64,000 nucleotides of DNA from Actinomycetes bacterium. Its GTDB lineage: Bacteria > Actinomycetota > JAICYB01. Under the pieces are notes generated by a model that did no database searches, was not told the origin of the DNA, and saw only the letters and a program-made list of their open reading frames with translations. Location: positions 9,724 through 73,723 of the forward strand of contig JAICYB010000009.1 of the NCBI GenBank assembly GCA_025934435.1, written 5' to 3'. A program made the translations under genes and the position numbers. Positions 21,498 to 24,473 of the stretch are shown here, in pieces; positions within the stretch are counted from its first letter, which is position 1, and the number at the start of each line of letters is the position of its first letter.

Positions 21498-22456
21498 AAC
21501 GGATGCTCGGCGTCGTCGCGCTCAGCATCGCGCTTGTCGCCGGGCTCGGTCTGCGCGCCGAAGCTGCCTTCCGCGTCGGGTGCGGTTCGGTCCTCCCGGA
21601 TCAGACGAAAGACACGGTCTTTCATCTGAAGCACAACCTGACGTGTCCGTCGTCGTTCGATCCCGCGATCACGCTCGGCGACCACACGATCCTCGATCTC
21701 AAGGGCCACAGACTGAACGGTTCGGGCACGGGTGACGGCGTCGACGCGATCGGGAAGGATCACGCTGCCGTTCGGCACGGCTCGATCACGAACTTCGTCA
21801 CGCCGGTCAACTTCTCCAACGGCAACGCCGACCAGGCCACGCGGCTGAAGATCCTGGGCGGCTTCGCGGCGGTGAATCTCAACGGCACCTCGCACGCGCT
21901 CGTCGCGAAGAACAGGTTCACCGTGGTGGGCCTGACGTGTGTCGACATCACCGATGCCTCGGACACGACGCTGCTTTCCAACCGGATGTCCTGTCATATG
22001 AATGGCGTCACCATCGGCGGCGCCTCGATGAACACGCTGGTGGATCGCAACCGGATCTCCCACGGTGCCGTCGGCATCGACATCAACACCACAGGGCTTG
22101 CATTCACAAGGGTCATCGGGAATACCGTTCGCGGTGGGACGACGGGCATCTTCGTTGCCGCGACCGGTGTGAACGAAACCATCACGGGAAACAAGGTCGC
22201 GGGTGCTTCGTCCAACGGCATCGACGTGCCGAGTGGAGCGTTGACCATCGCCATCGGCGGAAATGCGTCGAACGGCAACGGGCACGACGGGATCTCGGTT
22301 CTGAACAACGACGCCGGGACTTCGATCGGCGGAAACGTCGCGAACGGCAACGGCAACTACGGGATCGAAGCGACGGCCGGCACAGACGATGCGGGCGGCA
22401 ACAGGGCGAAGGCCAACGGCGCGTTCTACCAATGCATCTTCGTCGTGTGTCAGTGA
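21494..22456 (+). CDS. Secreted right-handed parallel beta-helix repeat protein (NosD/pectin-lyase-fold-like).
   Basis: Signal peptide MKRMLGVVALSIALVAGLGLRAEA. Repetitive G-N-x-V/I-x-G-N/T motifs (IGGNASNGNGHDGISV, IGGNVANGNGNYGIEA). Translationally coupled to the PT-repeat protein. Confidence 0.6.
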   Translation: MKRMLGVVALSIALVAGLGLRAEAAFRVGCGSVLPDQTKDTVFHLKHNLTCPSSFDPAITLGDHTILDLKGHRLNGSGTGDGVDAIGKDHAAVRHGSITNFVTPVNFSNGNADQATRLKILGGFAAVNLNGTSHALVAKNRFTVVGLTCVDITDASDTTLLSNRMSCHMNGVTIGGASMNTLVDRNRISHGAVGIDINTTGLAFTRVIGNTVRGGTTGIFVAATGVNETITGNKVAGASSNGIDVPSGALTIAIGGNASNGNGHDGISVLNNDAGTSIGGNVANGNGNYGIEATAGTDDAGGNRAKANGAFYQCIFVVCQ

Positions 22457-23232
22457 GCGCCGACGTCGAGGGCGAGCGTTAAGCACCGCACGCCGCCGCC
22501 GGCCTTCAGGAACTCGTCGACGGGGCACACTCGAACGTCGAAGTCGGACAGCAGCGATCGAAGGCGGTCGCTGCACGACGGCATCACGATCACGTCACCG
22601 ATCACGACGGAGTTCGCGCAGAACGAGAGAGCTTCGTCCGGCTCGAGATCGATCGGCTCCGGCACCACGGCTTTGACGACGTCGCGCCCGTAGCTGTCCC
22701 AGGCGGACGGAACACACAGCGCACGCCGGTCGTCCAGCGGACAGAACGTCAGGTCGACGTGGTAGAAGCGGGGGTCGACGAGTTCGAGTGAGAGCACTTC
22801 GACGTTGAGCGCTTTCGCGAGCGCGGTGTGTGCTTCGAACTCGGAGCGGATCCGGTAGCCGGCGATGATGCGGTCGCGGAAGGGCAGCGCGTCACCCGCG
22901 CCTTCGAAGTGCGGGCGGTTGTGGAGCTCGGTGATCGACCAGCCGTTCGTGCGGAACCACCGCCGGTAGTGCGGTTCCTCACCGGCGCGCTCGGGATGCG
23001 TGAACCGCGACGGGACGAACCGCTCGCCCCAGACCAGTCCGGCGTTCGCGGTGAAGACCATGTCCGGCAGGTCGTCGACGGACCCGAGGATCTCGACCTC
23101 GGCCCCCGCGTCGCGCAACGTCTCGACGAGCGTTTCCCACTGCGCGAGCGATCGGGACGGATCGGCCGGCACCTCCCGGCTCATCCACGGATTGATCTCG
23201 TAGAGCACGCCGAAATGTTCGGCGGGACACAT
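22450..23232 (-). CDS. Amidinotransferase-superfamily enzyme (arginine dihydrolase/DDAH-like guanidino-group hydrolase).
   Basis: 260 aa from the internal ATG (MCPAEHFGVLYEINPWM). Catalytic-Cys region GGGVRCLTLALD at the C-terminus, plus FCANSVVIGDVIVMP. The upstream Arg-rich part of the track ORF is not coding. Confidence 0.6.
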   Translation of the reverse strand: MCPAEHFGVLYEINPWMSREVPADPSRSLAQWETLVETLRDAGAEVEILGSVDDLPDMVFTANAGLVWGERFVPSRFTHPERAGEEPHYRRWFRTNGWSITELHNRPHFEGAGDALPFRDRIIAGYRIRSEFEAHTALAKALNVEVLSLELVDPRFYHVDLTFCPLDDRRALCVPSAWDSYGRDVVKAVVPEPIDLEPDEALSFCANSVVIGDVIVMPSCSDRLRSLLSDFDVRVCPVDEFLKAGGGVRCLTLALDVGAH

Positions 23233-23252
23233 CAGGTAGCGATGTCCCCACG

Positions 23253-24473
23253 CTAGCGACACAGATGTTCCGTCAGCTCGCTGACGAAGAGGCCGACGTC
23301 CGTGACGATGCCGAGCACCTGATGGCTGCCGCGGTCGGCGAGTTTCGTGACGACGGCCTGGTTGATGTCGACGCAGTACGTCTCGACGCTCGCCGCCAGG
23401 ACGTTGCCCGTCGCGATCGCATGCAGCGTCGACGCGAGCATGAGCGCGACGCGCACGCCGTCCAGGTTCGCGCGCATCGCGTCTTGCGCGGCCATCACGT
23501 CGGTGATGACGTCCGGCAGCGGGCCGTCGTCGCGCAGCGAGCCCGCCAGCACGAACGGGACGCCGGCGCGCACGCATTCGTACATCACCCCGGAGCGGAG
23601 TTCGCCTTGGTCGACACCGGCGGCGATCGATCCCCACCGACGGACCTCGTTGATCGCGCGGAGGTGATTCGCGTGACCGCCTTCGTCCGGCATCCCTTGT
23701 TTCACCGAGATGCCGAGGGACGTCCCGAGCAGTGCGCTCTCGATGTCGTGCGTCGCGAAACCGTTCCCGGCGAACAACACGTCGACCCATCCTTCGCGGA
23801 CGAGGCGTGCGAGATCGGGTCCCGATCCCGTGTGGATGAGCGCCGGGCCGCCGACGAGGAGGAGCCGCCCGCCCTCACCTTTGATGCGCTGGATACGGCG
23901 TGCGACGTCGGCGACGAGGAGGCCCTTCGGCTTCTCGCTCGAGATCTCCGACGTCATGAAGGCGAACGACTCGCCCGGCGTTGGTTCGCGTGGCTTCTCG
24001 AGCGGCTGCACCTTGACGCCGGCGAGCCCGACGACGACCTGTTCCCCCCGACGGACCTTGCTCATGGGCGTGTTGCGGACGGTGCCGCCGTCGACGACGA
24101 GCGCGCAGTCCATCTCGTCGCGGTCCACGTCGACGTAGGTTCCGTTGATCTTCACCGACGTCGGCAGGTTGGTCGTCGCGTAGAAGCCGCGGGGCAGCAC
24201 GCCGTCGTCCGGGGCCGGTGCCATCGTTGCATCCGGTTCGTCCAACGGGTGAGCGCCGTGCGGGTGCAGTTCGAGGAGCAGTTGCGCGAGCGCCTCGTGC
24301 GTCTGCGTGCGCAGCTCGATCCGCGCTTTGGATGGATCCGTGTGCGAGCGTCCGACCTCGAAGTCGAGCATGCGGTAGTCGGCGCCCGATTCGACGATGA
24401 CGTCGAGGATCTTCGCGAGGATGAGCGAGTCGATGATGTGGCCTTCGACCTCGACGATCGCCGTCGCGCTCAT
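23253..24473 (-). CDS. LOR/SDH (TIGR00300-type) protein, an archaeal-type ornithine-cyclodeaminase-like enzyme.
   Basis: From the internal Met: MSATAIVEVEGHIIDSLILAKILDVIVESGADYRMLDFEVGRSHTDPSKARIEL matches the characteristic N-terminus of this family (G-H-I-I-D-S-L-I-L...F-x-V-G). About 406 aa with a Rossmann-like C-terminal half (LLLVGGPALIHTG). Confidence 0.6.
   Translation of the reverse strand: MSATAIVEVEGHIIDSLILAKILDVIVESGADYRMLDFEVGRSHTDPSKARIELRTQTHEALAQLLLELHPHGAHPLDEPDATMAPAPDDGVLPRGFYATTNLPTSVKINGTYVDVDRDEMDCALVVDGGTVRNTPMSKVRRGEQVVVGLAGVKVQPLEKPREPTPGESFAFMTSEISSEKPKGLLVADVARRIQRIKGEGGRLLLVGGPALIHTGSGPDLARLVREGWVDVLFAGNGFATHDIESALLGTSLGISVKQGMPDEGGHANHLRAINEVRRWGSIAAGVDQGELRSGVMYECVRAGVPFVLAGSLRDDGPLPDVITDVMAAQDAMRANLDGVRVALMLASTLHAIATGNVLAASVETYCVDINQAVVTKLADRGSHQVLGIVTDVGLFVSELTEHLCR

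What the first reader, a model, noticed from the sequence alone, without database searches (positions are those of the whole stretch)
22450..24473. Two-gene split version of the AgrE/ArgZ arginine-to-proline pathway
Two adjacent minus-strand genes 20 bp apart recapitulate, as separate proteins, the two domains of the bifunctional cyanobacterial AgrE/ArgZ enzyme. The upstream gene is an archaeal-type ornithine-cyclodeaminase-like protein of the LOR/SDH family with the very characteristic N-terminus EVEGHIIDSLILAKILD...FEVGR. The downstream gene has an amidinotransferase fold with a GGGVRCLTLAL catalytic-Cys block. In AgrE the amidinotransferase-like N-domain converts arginine to ornithine and the LOR/SDH C-domain cyclises ornithine to proline. 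A split, operonic form in an actinobacterium would suggest the same arginine catabolic route exists in a lineage where it is not described. PutA at 57445 could carry the proline on to glutamate. It is also a natural system for studying how the fusion evolved.
Basis: partly seen in the sequence, partly recalled or inferred. Interest (0 to 1): 0.7.

Follow-up and report, generated by a model that had tools for sequence, protein, structure and literature searches.

The report
Two-gene arginine-to-proline operon
Two overlapping genes in a probable Acidimicrobiia actinobacterium encode, as separate proteins, an arginine dihydrolase-like enzyme and a nickel-cofactor-type ornithine cyclodeaminase that together should turn arginine into proline; this pairing is a common, uncharacterised arrangement in many bacterial phyla, not a rarity.

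Summary
The window carries an ornithine cyclodeaminase (OCD) gene at 23253-24473 (-) and an amidinotransferase-fold gene at 22450-23262/23232 (-).

- **OCD:** it passes the curated TIGR00300 model, 497 bits against a cutoff of 410.8, named [quoted passage not shown].
- **Amidinotransferase:** its best matches are the N-domains of ArgZ and AgrE (E = 3e-65, 46% identity). The catalytic Cys, His and Glu and the Asn71 equivalent are conserved. It falls below every curated equivalog cutoff. It sits in an actinobacterial clade apart from the ArgZ clade.
- **Support for an ornithine product:** in 64 of 80 species-level genomes from at least seven phyla, an OCD gene lies just upstream on the same strand. 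One clade member is fused to an ornithine aminotransferase instead.

- The gene order, OCD then amidinotransferase, is the reverse of the ArgZ domain order.
- The true start is probably GTG 23262, so the genes overlap by 10 nt and are not 20 bp apart.
- The OCD family needs a nickel-pincer cofactor. No LarB, LarC or LarE gene is in the window, though relatives carry them beside the pair.
- The related Mycobacterium tuberculosis protein Rv2323c is already known to be needed for arginine-to-proline flux.

Verdict: a new member of a known kind, of moderate to low interest.

The parts
23253..24473 (-). Stand-alone ornithine cyclodeaminase of the LOR/SDH-like TIGR00300 family (406 aa), the counterpart of the AgrE/ArgZ C-terminal domain. 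Predicted reaction: L-ornithine -> L-proline + NH3.
   Evidence: TIGR00300 scores 497.2 bits against a cutoff of 410.8. Pfam PF04455, PF21571 and PF21570 cover residues 6-400. It is 44% identical to the AgrE C-domain, 41% to the ArgZ C-domain and 47% to the archaeal 3c2q.
22450..23262 (-). Amidinotransferase (pentein) fold enzyme, the counterpart of the ArgZ/AgrE N-domain. It is 270 aa from GTG 23262, or 260 aa from ATG 23232. Predicted arginine dihydrolase: L-arginine + 2 H2O -> L-ornithine + 2 NH3 + CO2.
   Evidence: ArgZ 6jv0 matches at E = 3e-65 with 46% identity. NCBIfam gives bifunc_ArgZ 257.5 bits and Arg_dihydro 251.6 bits (cutoff 450, not reached). D57, N63, R82, E110, D114, R129, H158, D160 and C250 (ATG numbering) are invariant in 62 family members. 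N63, E110, H158 and C250 align with ArgZ N71, E118, H168 and C264.
23253..23262 (-). A 10-nt overlap between the OCD stop codon (TAG 23255-23253) and the probable GTG start of the amidinotransferase gene. This suggests translational coupling.
   Evidence: Read directly from the sequence. The encoded extension is conserved in homologues. The same 10-nt overlap occurs in L001, L002, L003 and L017. The start assignment is inferred, not proven.
57445..60366 (+). PutA (proline dehydrogenase / glutamate-semialdehyde dehydrogenase, 973 aa). It is a possible downstream step, proline -> glutamate, but it is genetically unlinked, about 33 kb away.
   Evidence: Pfam finds PutA_N, Pro_dh and Aldedh. NCBIfam PutA NF008869 scores 654 bits, below its cutoff of 747.

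Best explanation
This is a two-gene operon for converting arginine to proline. The two genes are probably translationally coupled.

**Step 1, the downstream gene product.** It is a pentein-fold cysteine hydrolase related to the ArgZ/AgrE N-domain and to M. tuberculosis Rv2323c. It is predicted to act as an arginine dihydrolase. Cys250 would attack the guanidino carbon, assisted by His158 and Glu110. Two successive hydrolyses would release 2 NH3 and CO2 and leave L-ornithine. The second hydrolysis requires the Asn71 equivalent, Asn63.

**Step 2, the upstream gene product.** It is a stand-alone TIGR00300-type ornithine cyclodeaminase. It is predicted to cyclise ornithine to L-proline with loss of a third NH3. 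It would use a tightly bound hydride-shuttling cofactor. For this family the cofactor is now reported to be a nickel-pincer (adenine di)nucleotide made by LarB, LarC and LarE.

**Step 3.** Proline can then be oxidised to glutamate by the unlinked PutA. The net result is Arg -> Glu + 3 NH3 + CO2, a route for nitrogen and carbon scavenging.

**Shown here:** gene presence, family assignment, conservation of catalytic residues, and co-conservation of the pair.

**Inferred:** substrates and products, cofactor use, coupling or channelling between the two proteins, and the physiological direction (catabolic).
For: - **OCD assignment.** It passes the curated equivalog TIGR00300 and has all three domains at full length. 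It is 41-47% identical to structurally solved AgrE, ArgZ and archaeal homologues.
- **Amidinotransferase assignment.** Its best PDB and HMM matches are the ArgZ/AgrE arginine dihydrolase domains. The residues aligning with ArgZ N71, E118, H168 and C264 are conserved, and nine active-site positions are invariant across 62 homologues.
- **Gene linkage.** All six metagenomic or MAG relatives examined have the pair. Of 80 GTDB species-level loci, 61 have a TIGR00300-type OCD immediately upstream on the same strand. Three more have it separated only by transporter or small genes.
- **Independent pointers to ornithine as the product.** The Thermoleophilaceae member L058 groups with the window's clade at 100% bootstrap. 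It is a single ORF fused to an ornithine--oxo-acid transaminase (TIGR01885, 486.7 bits against 378.4). Mtb Rv2323c sits next to rocD and is required for arginine -> proline flux (PMC4569260).
- **Supporting neighbourhoods.** L006 and L008 insert a polar-amino-acid ABC transporter between the two genes, followed by LarB, LarC and LarE. Nitrospira loci carry LarB and LarC within 5 kb. An aldehyde dehydrogenase gene or PutA follows the pair in other contigs.
- **Cofactor.** The NCBIfam model name and the citation of Desguin 2025 in PMC13524815 support nickel-pincer dependence.
Against: - No enzyme of this actinobacterial clade has been assayed.
- The amidinotransferase is below the curated cutoffs of both the arginine dihydrolase model (251.6 against 450) and the Mtb-type 'dimethylargininase' model (227.5 against 300). 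In the tree it falls outside the ArgZ clade.
- No LarB, LarC or LarE homologue is found in the 64-kb window, so cofactor supply is unverified for this genome.
- PutA is not linked, and no arginine transporter or regulator is adjacent in the window.
- The upstream neighbour is a DNA ligase whose stop codon is 1 nt from the OCD start, so operon boundaries are unclear.
- The primary paper on the cofactor could not be read.
Confidence: 0.77

Rival explanations
1. The downstream protein is a dimethylargininase (DDAH) or a citrulline-forming deiminase, not a dihydrolase. The pair would then not form a direct arginine -> ornithine -> proline route.
For: Pfam places it only in PF19420 DDAH_eukar. Most database names for its homologues are 'N-dimethylarginine dimethylaminohydrolase'. 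It scores 219-227 bits on the Mtb-type 'dimethylargininase' model NF045659. It clusters with a member (L058) that scores best on that model.
Against: Bona fide DDAH models score only 31-50 bits against cutoffs of 340-450. The Asn71 equivalent is invariant; from memory of Zhuang 2020 and Lee & Rhee 2020, this residue is essential for the second hydrolytic step. The consistent partners are ornithine-consuming enzymes, OCD or ornithine aminotransferase. The Mtb protein behind the 'DDAH' name is genetically required for arginine -> ornithine/proline flux.
Confidence: 0.1
2. The chemistry is the same but the role is anabolic. The pair would supply proline, or ornithine for polyamines and arginine recycling in an 'ornithine-ammonia cycle', and would not serve arginine catabolism for nitrogen.
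For: From memory, archaeal TIGR00300 OCDs were first linked to proline biosynthesis from ornithine (Graupner & White 2001). In Synechocystis, ArgZ was described as part of an ornithine-ammonia cycle. In the window, no catabolic regulator, transporter or PutA gene is adjacent.
Against: Relatives place the pair with an amino-acid ABC importer, an aldehyde dehydrogenase, PutA or glutamate dehydrogenase. PutA is present in the same window.
Confidence: 0.1
3. The pair acts on a related but different substrate. One example is homoarginine or another guanidino amino acid, yielding lysine or another diamino acid that the cyclodeaminase then cyclises to pipecolate.
For: The clade is only 42-46% identical to characterised ArgZ and is below equivalog cutoffs. 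The OCD is 41-47% identical to characterised homologues.
Against: The OCD passes the equivalog threshold of TIGR00300. The probable active-site positions of the amidinotransferase are identical to ArgZ. A sister member is fused to an ornithine-specific aminotransferase model, TIGR01885.
Confidence: 0.03

Closest known systems
AgrE (Anabaena Alr4995) / ArgZ (Synechocystis Sll1336), bifunctional arginine dihydrolase / ornithine cyclodeaminase
   Same: Both catalytic modules are present and are homologous over their full length. The amidinotransferase is 46% identical to the ArgZ N-domain. The OCD is 41-44% identical to the C-domains. The residues aligning with ArgZ N71, E118, H168 and C264 are conserved. 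The predicted net chemistry is the same, and PutA is available as a follow-on step.
   Different: Here there are two polypeptides, not one. The gene order, OCD then amidinotransferase, is the reverse of the domain order. The amidinotransferase belongs to a separate actinobacterial clade (99-100% bootstrap separation). The scores are far below the bifunctional model cutoff of 1025. The intramolecular channel proposed for AgrE (from memory) cannot exist as such.
Archaeal / stand-alone TIGR00300 ornithine cyclodeaminase (e.g. PDB 3c2q), reported to depend on a nickel-pincer adenine dinucleotide cofactor (Desguin 2025, cited in PMC13524815)
   Same: It is above the equivalog cutoff, 47% identical to 3c2q, and a stand-alone protein. 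In some relatives LarB, LarC and LarE lie next to the gene.
   Different: Here it is coupled to an amidinotransferase gene. The lar genes are not seen in the window. Cofactor use is untested.
Mycobacterium tuberculosis Rv2323c (annotated DDAH; NCBIfam NF045659)
   Same: It is a stand-alone actinobacterial homologue from the same protein family. It is genetically required for growth on arginine and for arginine -> proline labelling. It sits next to an ornithine-metabolising gene. The window protein scores 219-227 bits on its model.
   Different: Its partner gene is rocD (ornithine aminotransferase), not an OCD. The window protein is below that model's cutoff of 300 and scores higher on the ArgZ models.

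Membership tests
TIGR00300 ornithine cyclodeaminase (LOR/SDH-like, NPN-dependent; AgrE/ArgZ C-domain type) | Whole-protein score above the curated equivalog cutoff | tested here: met
   497.2 bits against a cutoff of 410.8, aligned over residues 6-404.
TIGR00300 ornithine cyclodeaminase (LOR/SDH-like, NPN-dependent; AgrE/ArgZ C-domain type) | Three-part architecture: PF04455 N-domain, then ArgZ-like C 1st region, then Rossmann-like 2nd region | tested here: met
   PF04455 covers 6-102, PF21571 covers 104-187 and PF21570 covers 189-400. All are near full profile length.
TIGR00300 ornithine cyclodeaminase (LOR/SDH-like, NPN-dependent; AgrE/ArgZ C-domain type) | Nickel-pincer cofactor biosynthesis genes (larB, larC, larE) available to the organism | tested here: inconclusive
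   There is no tblastn hit to LarB, LarC or LarE in the 64-kb window, and the rest of the genome is not available. Relatives L006 and L008 carry LarB, LarC and LarE next to the pair. L069, L079 and L083 carry LarB and LarC close by.
TIGR00300 ornithine cyclodeaminase (LOR/SDH-like, NPN-dependent; AgrE/ArgZ C-domain type) | Ornithine -> proline + NH3 activity | not testable with these tools
   This needs a biochemical assay.
ArgZ/AgrE-type arginine dihydrolase (EC 3.5.3.27) domain | Pentein/amidinotransferase fold homologous to the ArgZ N-domain | tested here: met
   6jv0/6juy match at E = 3e-65 over residues 1-255. AgrE 6lrf matches at E = 2e-63. Identity is 46%.
ArgZ/AgrE-type arginine dihydrolase (EC 3.5.3.27) domain | Catalytic Cys-His-Glu plus Asn71 (needed for the second hydrolysis; role recalled from the literature) | tested here: met
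   C250, H158, E110 and N63 align with ArgZ C264, H168, E118 and N71. They are invariant in 62 homologues.
ArgZ/AgrE-type arginine dihydrolase (EC 3.5.3.27) domain | Score above the curated cutoff of NF052232 (Arg_dihydro equivalog_domain) | tested here: not met
   244.5 to 251.6 bits against a cutoff of 450.
ArgZ/AgrE-type arginine dihydrolase (EC 3.5.3.27) domain | Groups inside the ArgZ/AgrE clade in a phylogeny | tested here: not met
   In an NJ tree with 100 bootstraps, the ArgZ-like clade has 99% support. The window protein lies in a separate Actinomycetota clade with 100% support. The method is distance-based only, with midpoint rooting and no DDAH outgroup.
ArgZ/AgrE-type arginine dihydrolase (EC 3.5.3.27) domain | Functional coupling to an ornithine-consuming enzyme | tested here: met
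   An OCD lies immediately upstream in 61 of 80 GTDB loci, and in 3 more it is separated by a few genes. A clade member is fused to an ornithine aminotransferase.
Bifunctional ArgZ/AgrE (NF052231) | A single polypeptide with an N-terminal dihydrolase and a C-terminal OCD | tested here: not met
   There are two ORFs separated by a stop codon in a different frame, in the order OCD -> amidinotransferase. The scores of 410 and 251-257 bits are below the cutoff of 1025. None of the 86 loci has both in one ORF.
Dimethylargininase (DDAH) | Score above the curated cutoffs of the DDAH equivalogs (NF045658, NF045660, NF045659) | tested here: not met
   31 bits against 450, 50 against 340, and 219-227 against 300. 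Only the broad Pfam family PF19420 is passed, at 41.7 bits against 23.

The most novel reading that the evidence does not exclude
The OCD -> amidinotransferase gene pair, and not the cyanobacterial fusion, may be the widespread and probably older form of a nickel-pincer-cofactor-dependent arginine-to-proline pathway. It is found in Actinomycetota, Planctomycetota, Verrucomicrobiota, Nitrospirota and other phyla. The two separate proteins may assemble into a complex that channels ornithine. The ArgZ/AgrE fusion, with its reversed order, and the actinobacterial amidinotransferase-ornithine aminotransferase fusion would then be independent later solutions. If so, arginine catabolism in many environmental bacteria would depend on nickel.
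Probability: 0.35. Interest if true: 0.5.

Novelty: new member of a known kind. Interest (0 to 1): 0.33.

Why it matters
If confirmed, this extends the ArgZ/AgrE arginine dihydrolase -> cyclodeaminase route from cyanobacteria to Acidimicrobiia. By the same gene pairing it would extend to several other abundant soil and water phyla. It would also link arginine use in these organisms to nickel-pincer cofactor supply.

It would correct a common misannotation of these proteins as 'dimethylarginine dimethylaminohydrolase'. It also offers naturally separate proteins for testing whether the substrate channelling proposed for the fused enzyme matters.

It does not reveal a new kind of chemistry or system. 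Both modules are recognisable with current curated models.

Tried and rejected
- **lar genes in the window.** tblastn with L006 LarB, LarC and LarE found nothing.
- **Primary papers.** Desguin 2025 (pmid 40976284), Lee & Rhee 2020 (PMC7186175) and Zhuang 2020 (PMC7029115) are not held. Residue roles and the NAD(H)/channel statements for AgrE/ArgZ therefore rest on memory and on PDB alignments.
- **Prior descriptions of the split operon.** Searches for TIGR00300, for ArgZ with Actinobacteria, and for other phyla found none in the held library.
- **Promoter and terminator scan of 22200-25700.** It was uninformative: 0 promoters, and 1 terminator-like site at about the chance level.
- **First bootstrap attempt.** It timed out. 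I redid it with a faster Kimura-distance NJ.
- **Possibility of a reverse-order fusion (OCD-N, amidinotransferase-C).** Rejected. No locus has both in one ORF.
- **'Stand-alone' ArgZ-clade proteins as direct precursors of the fusion.** One (L087) is a fused gene broken by nanopore frameshifts. Two (L088, L089) are solitary, with no OCD nearby.
- **Structure prediction.** Not run. It was judged redundant given 41-47% identity to solved structures.
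Full report
**1. What is in the sequence**

The window is uniformly about 65% GC. On the minus strand, an ORF runs from ATG 24473 to TAG 23255-23253 and encodes 406 aa. It begins MSATAIVEVEGHIIDSLILAKILD...FEVGR. 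A second ORF follows and ends at 22450. Its product ends ...FLKAGGGVRCLTLALDVGAH.

From the ATG at 23232 the second protein is 260 aa and the intergenic gap is 20 nt. However, homologues share a conserved N-terminal extension, L-x-W-G-R/H-R-Y-L, before the M-C-P motif (alignment A1). In the window this extension is encoded in frame from GTG 23262 (VSLAWGHRYLMCP). Using that start adds about 7 bits to every NCBIfam hit and extends the alignments. The closest relatives show the same 10-nt overlap between the OCD stop and the downstream start (L001, L002, L003, L017). I therefore take 22450-23262 (270 aa) as the likely gene. It overlaps the OCD gene by 10 nt, which suggests translational coupling. 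This start assignment is an inference.

**2. Family assignment**

*Upstream protein.* It matches Pfam PF04455 (residues 6-102), PF21571 (104-187) and PF21570 (189-400), the 'ArgZ-like C-terminal' architecture. It passes the NCBIfam equivalog TIGR00300, 'ornithine cyclodeaminase, nickel-pincer nucleotide-dependent', at 497.2 bits against a cutoff of 410.8. Its best solved relatives are:
- the AgrE (Alr4995) C-domain, 44% identity;
- the archaeal 3c2q, 47% identity;
- the ArgZ (Sll1336) C-domain, 41% identity.

*Downstream protein.* In Pfam it matches only the broad PF19420 family. In NCBIfam it scores highest on the N-terminal part of bifunc_ArgZ (251-257 bits) and on Arg_dihydro NF052232 (244-252 bits, cutoff 450). 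Next comes the M. tuberculosis-type 'dimethylargininase' model NF045659 (219-227 bits, cutoff 300). The genuine DDAH models reach only 31-50 bits. In the PDB its only strong hits are the ArgZ and AgrE N-domains (E = 3e-65 to 4e-62, 46% identity).

I derived the chain numbering from the N71S variant 6juz. On that numbering, the window residues N63, E110, H158 and C250 (ATG numbering) align with ArgZ N71, E118, H168 and C264. These four, together with D57, R82, D114, R129 and D160, are invariant in all 62 family members I aligned. The functional roles of these residues are recalled from the ArgZ/AgrE structural papers, which the library does not hold.

**3. Co-conservation and distribution**

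All six relatives fetched by exact-protein look-up carry both genes. In five of them the OCD gene lies immediately upstream of the amidinotransferase gene. In L006 a four-gene ABC transporter lies between them.

The best 80 loci come from:
- Acidimicrobiia, including the cultured Salinilacustrithrix flava;
- Thermoleophilia;
- Planctomycetota;
- Verrucomicrobiota;
- Nitrospirota and Nitrospinota;
- a 'delta proteobacterium', Dormibacterota and a Patescibacteria-labelled MAG.

tblastn with the window's OCD sorted these 80 loci as follows:

| OCD status upstream of the amidinotransferase | Loci |
|---|---|
| Full or contig-truncated OCD immediately upstream, same strand | 61 |
| Same strand, separated by 0.5-3.4 kb | 3 |
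| Only a short match to the OCD N-domain | 4 |
| No OCD despite at least 9 kb of upstream sequence | 8 |
| One OCD about 9 kb away on the other strand | 1 |
| Too short to judge | 3 |

In no locus are the two in one ORF. The order is always OCD then amidinotransferase. This is the reverse of the ArgZ/AgrE domain order, where the amidinotransferase covers residues 9-269 and the OCD covers 286-691. Identities of the two partners to the window proteins co-vary (r = 0.94 over 63 pairs). That fits inheritance as a unit, although shared phylogeny alone would also produce a correlation.

**4. Where the amidinotransferase sits**

I built a neighbour-joining tree of 62 sequences (Kimura distance, 100 bootstraps, midpoint root). 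It separates two groups:
- an 'ArgZ-like' clade that contains the cyanobacterial fused enzymes and some solitary proteins (99% support);
- an Actinomycetota clade that contains the window protein (100% support).

The OCD-linked Planctomycetota, Verrucomicrobiota and Nitrospirota sequences fall between these two.

The window protein is therefore a member of the broader ArgZ-N/Rv2323c family but not of the ArgZ clade. This matches its sub-threshold HMM scores. The tree is approximate. It is distance-based, has no DDAH outgroup and does not include Rv2323c itself.

**5. Evidence that the product is ornithine**

- *Partners.* The conserved partner across the family is an ornithine-consuming enzyme.
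- *A fusion within the actinobacterial clade.* The Thermoleophilaceae member L058 is a single 766-aa ORF. Its C-terminal half passes the ornithine--oxo-acid transaminase equivalog TIGR01885 (486.7 bits against 378.4).
- *Genetics in M. tuberculosis.* The homologue Rv2323c lies next to rocD and is induced by arginine. Its deletion impairs growth on arginine and nearly abolishes 13C flow from arginine to proline and glutamate (Hampel 2015, PMC4569260). That paper notes that the 'DDAH' annotation had no functional basis.
- *Neighbourhoods in relatives.* These include a polar-amino-acid ABC importer (L006, L008), an aldehyde dehydrogenase directly downstream, glutamate dehydrogenase and PutA (L087).
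- *PutA in the window.* A PutA gene (PutA_N + Pro_dh + Aldedh) lies at 57445-60366 (+). It is 33 kb away and unlinked.

**6. Cofactor**

The NCBIfam model name and a 2026 paper citing Desguin 2025 (PMC13524815) indicate that this OCD family uses a nickel-pincer adenine dinucleotide cofactor. I could not read the primary paper.

Consistent with this, L006 carries LarB (232 bits against 175), LarC (182 against 90) and LarE (264 against 150) directly after the amidinotransferase gene. L008 has the same layout. Three Nitrospira loci have LarB and LarC within 5 kb.

The window itself has no detectable lar gene. Whether the source genome has them elsewhere cannot be tested here.

**7. Local context**

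- *Upstream neighbour.* Upstream of the OCD, on the same strand, is an ATP-dependent DNA ligase gene. Its TGA (24477-24475) is 1 nt from the OCD ATG. Relatives L001 and L002 have an ArsR-type HTH gene and AHSA1 genes between the ligase and the OCD, and the window lacks them.
- *Downstream neighbour.* A convergent NosD/beta-helix gene ends at 22456 and overlaps the amidinotransferase stop by 7 nt. The same arrangement is seen in L001 and L002.
- *Regulatory signals.* The consensus promoter and terminator scan was uninformative.
- *Source organism.* The best homologues are labelled Actinomycetota or Acidimicrobiales.

**8. Comparison with what is known, and novelty**

The chemistry and both protein modules are known: ArgZ/AgrE, TIGR00300 OCDs, and Rv2323c. 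A 2026 preprint already infers an arginine-to-proline route from separate ArgZ-N-like and OCD genes in Coxiella. An SSN study noted that the bifunctional enzymes cluster with many uncharacterised proteins.

In the searchable literature I found no explicit description or assay of the OCD -> amidinotransferase operon in Actinomycetota or in the other phyla. Much of the literature is not held, however.

The finding is therefore a correct functional prediction and a new member of a known kind. The pair is common, not exceptional.
- the reversed gene order;
- the probable overlap of the two genes;
- the likely nickel-pincer dependence;
- the parallel ornithine-aminotransferase fusion;
- the separate clade position of the amidinotransferase.

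**9. Verdict**

- Observation: confirmed.
- Interpretation: supported, with the caveats above.
- Confidence in the arginine -> ornithine -> proline mechanism: about 0.77.
- Interest: about 0.33.

Noticed in passing
L058:9737-12037 (Thermoleophilaceae MAG DASVQB010000041.1): A single 766-aa ORF fuses an ArgZ-N/Rv2323c-like amidinotransferase to an ornithine--oxo-acid transaminase (TIGR01885, 486.7 bits against a cutoff of 378.4). It is a second kind of bifunctional arginine-catabolic enzyme, and I did not find it described. It could be an assembly artefact, since only one locus was seen.
   Followed up: partly
L006:3473-11581 and L008:5421-13527 (Acidimicrobiales): An extended operon: OCD, then a four-gene polar-amino-acid ABC transporter, then the amidinotransferase, then LarB, LarC and LarE. 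Nitrospira loci L069, L079 and L083 also carry LarB and LarC within 5 kb of the pair.
   Followed up: partly
L040:2091-2234, L044:9738-9881, L068:9735-9887, L074:9760-9903 (Verrucomicrobiota): Upstream of the amidinotransferase gene there is only a match of about 50 aa to the OCD N-terminal (PF04455-like) domain. No full OCD is present. This may be a stand-alone N-domain gene or a remnant.
   Followed up: no
window 25510-26502 (+): An aldo-keto reductase gene lies beside the ligase/OCD cluster. The same AKR-ligase-OCD-amidinotransferase synteny is seen in L001 and L002. A nickel-pincer-dependent AKR family was recently described (PMC13524815). NCBIfam gives only generic sub-threshold AKR hits here, so any link is speculative.
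   Followed up: partly
window 24471-24477: The stop codon of an ATP-dependent DNA ligase gene (344 aa from 25509) lies 1 nt upstream of the OCD start codon. Relatives L001 and L002 have an ArsR-type HTH gene and AHSA1 genes between the ligase and the OCD, and the window lacks them.
   Followed up: partly
window 20613-21497 (+) and 21500-22456 (+): A Pro/Thr-rich repeat protein (PTPGP/TLTPGP repeats) precedes a NosD/right-handed beta-helix protein. The stop of the beta-helix gene overlaps the amidinotransferase stop convergently by 7 nt (22450-22456). The arrangement is conserved in L001 and L002.
   Followed up: no
L087:5001-10912 (ENA nanopore contig): An ArgZ-clade amidinotransferase is followed by OCD fragments in shifted frames, probably a fused argZ broken by sequencing frameshifts. 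A similarly fragmented PutA lies about 2 kb downstream. This is an example of physical ArgZ-PutA linkage.
   Followed up: no
window 52252-55485 (-), 16758-17612 (-): A tricorn-type protease (1077 aa: PD40, Tricorn_C1, PDZ, S41) and an RTX calcium-binding repeat protein. Both are unrelated to the finding.
   Followed up: no
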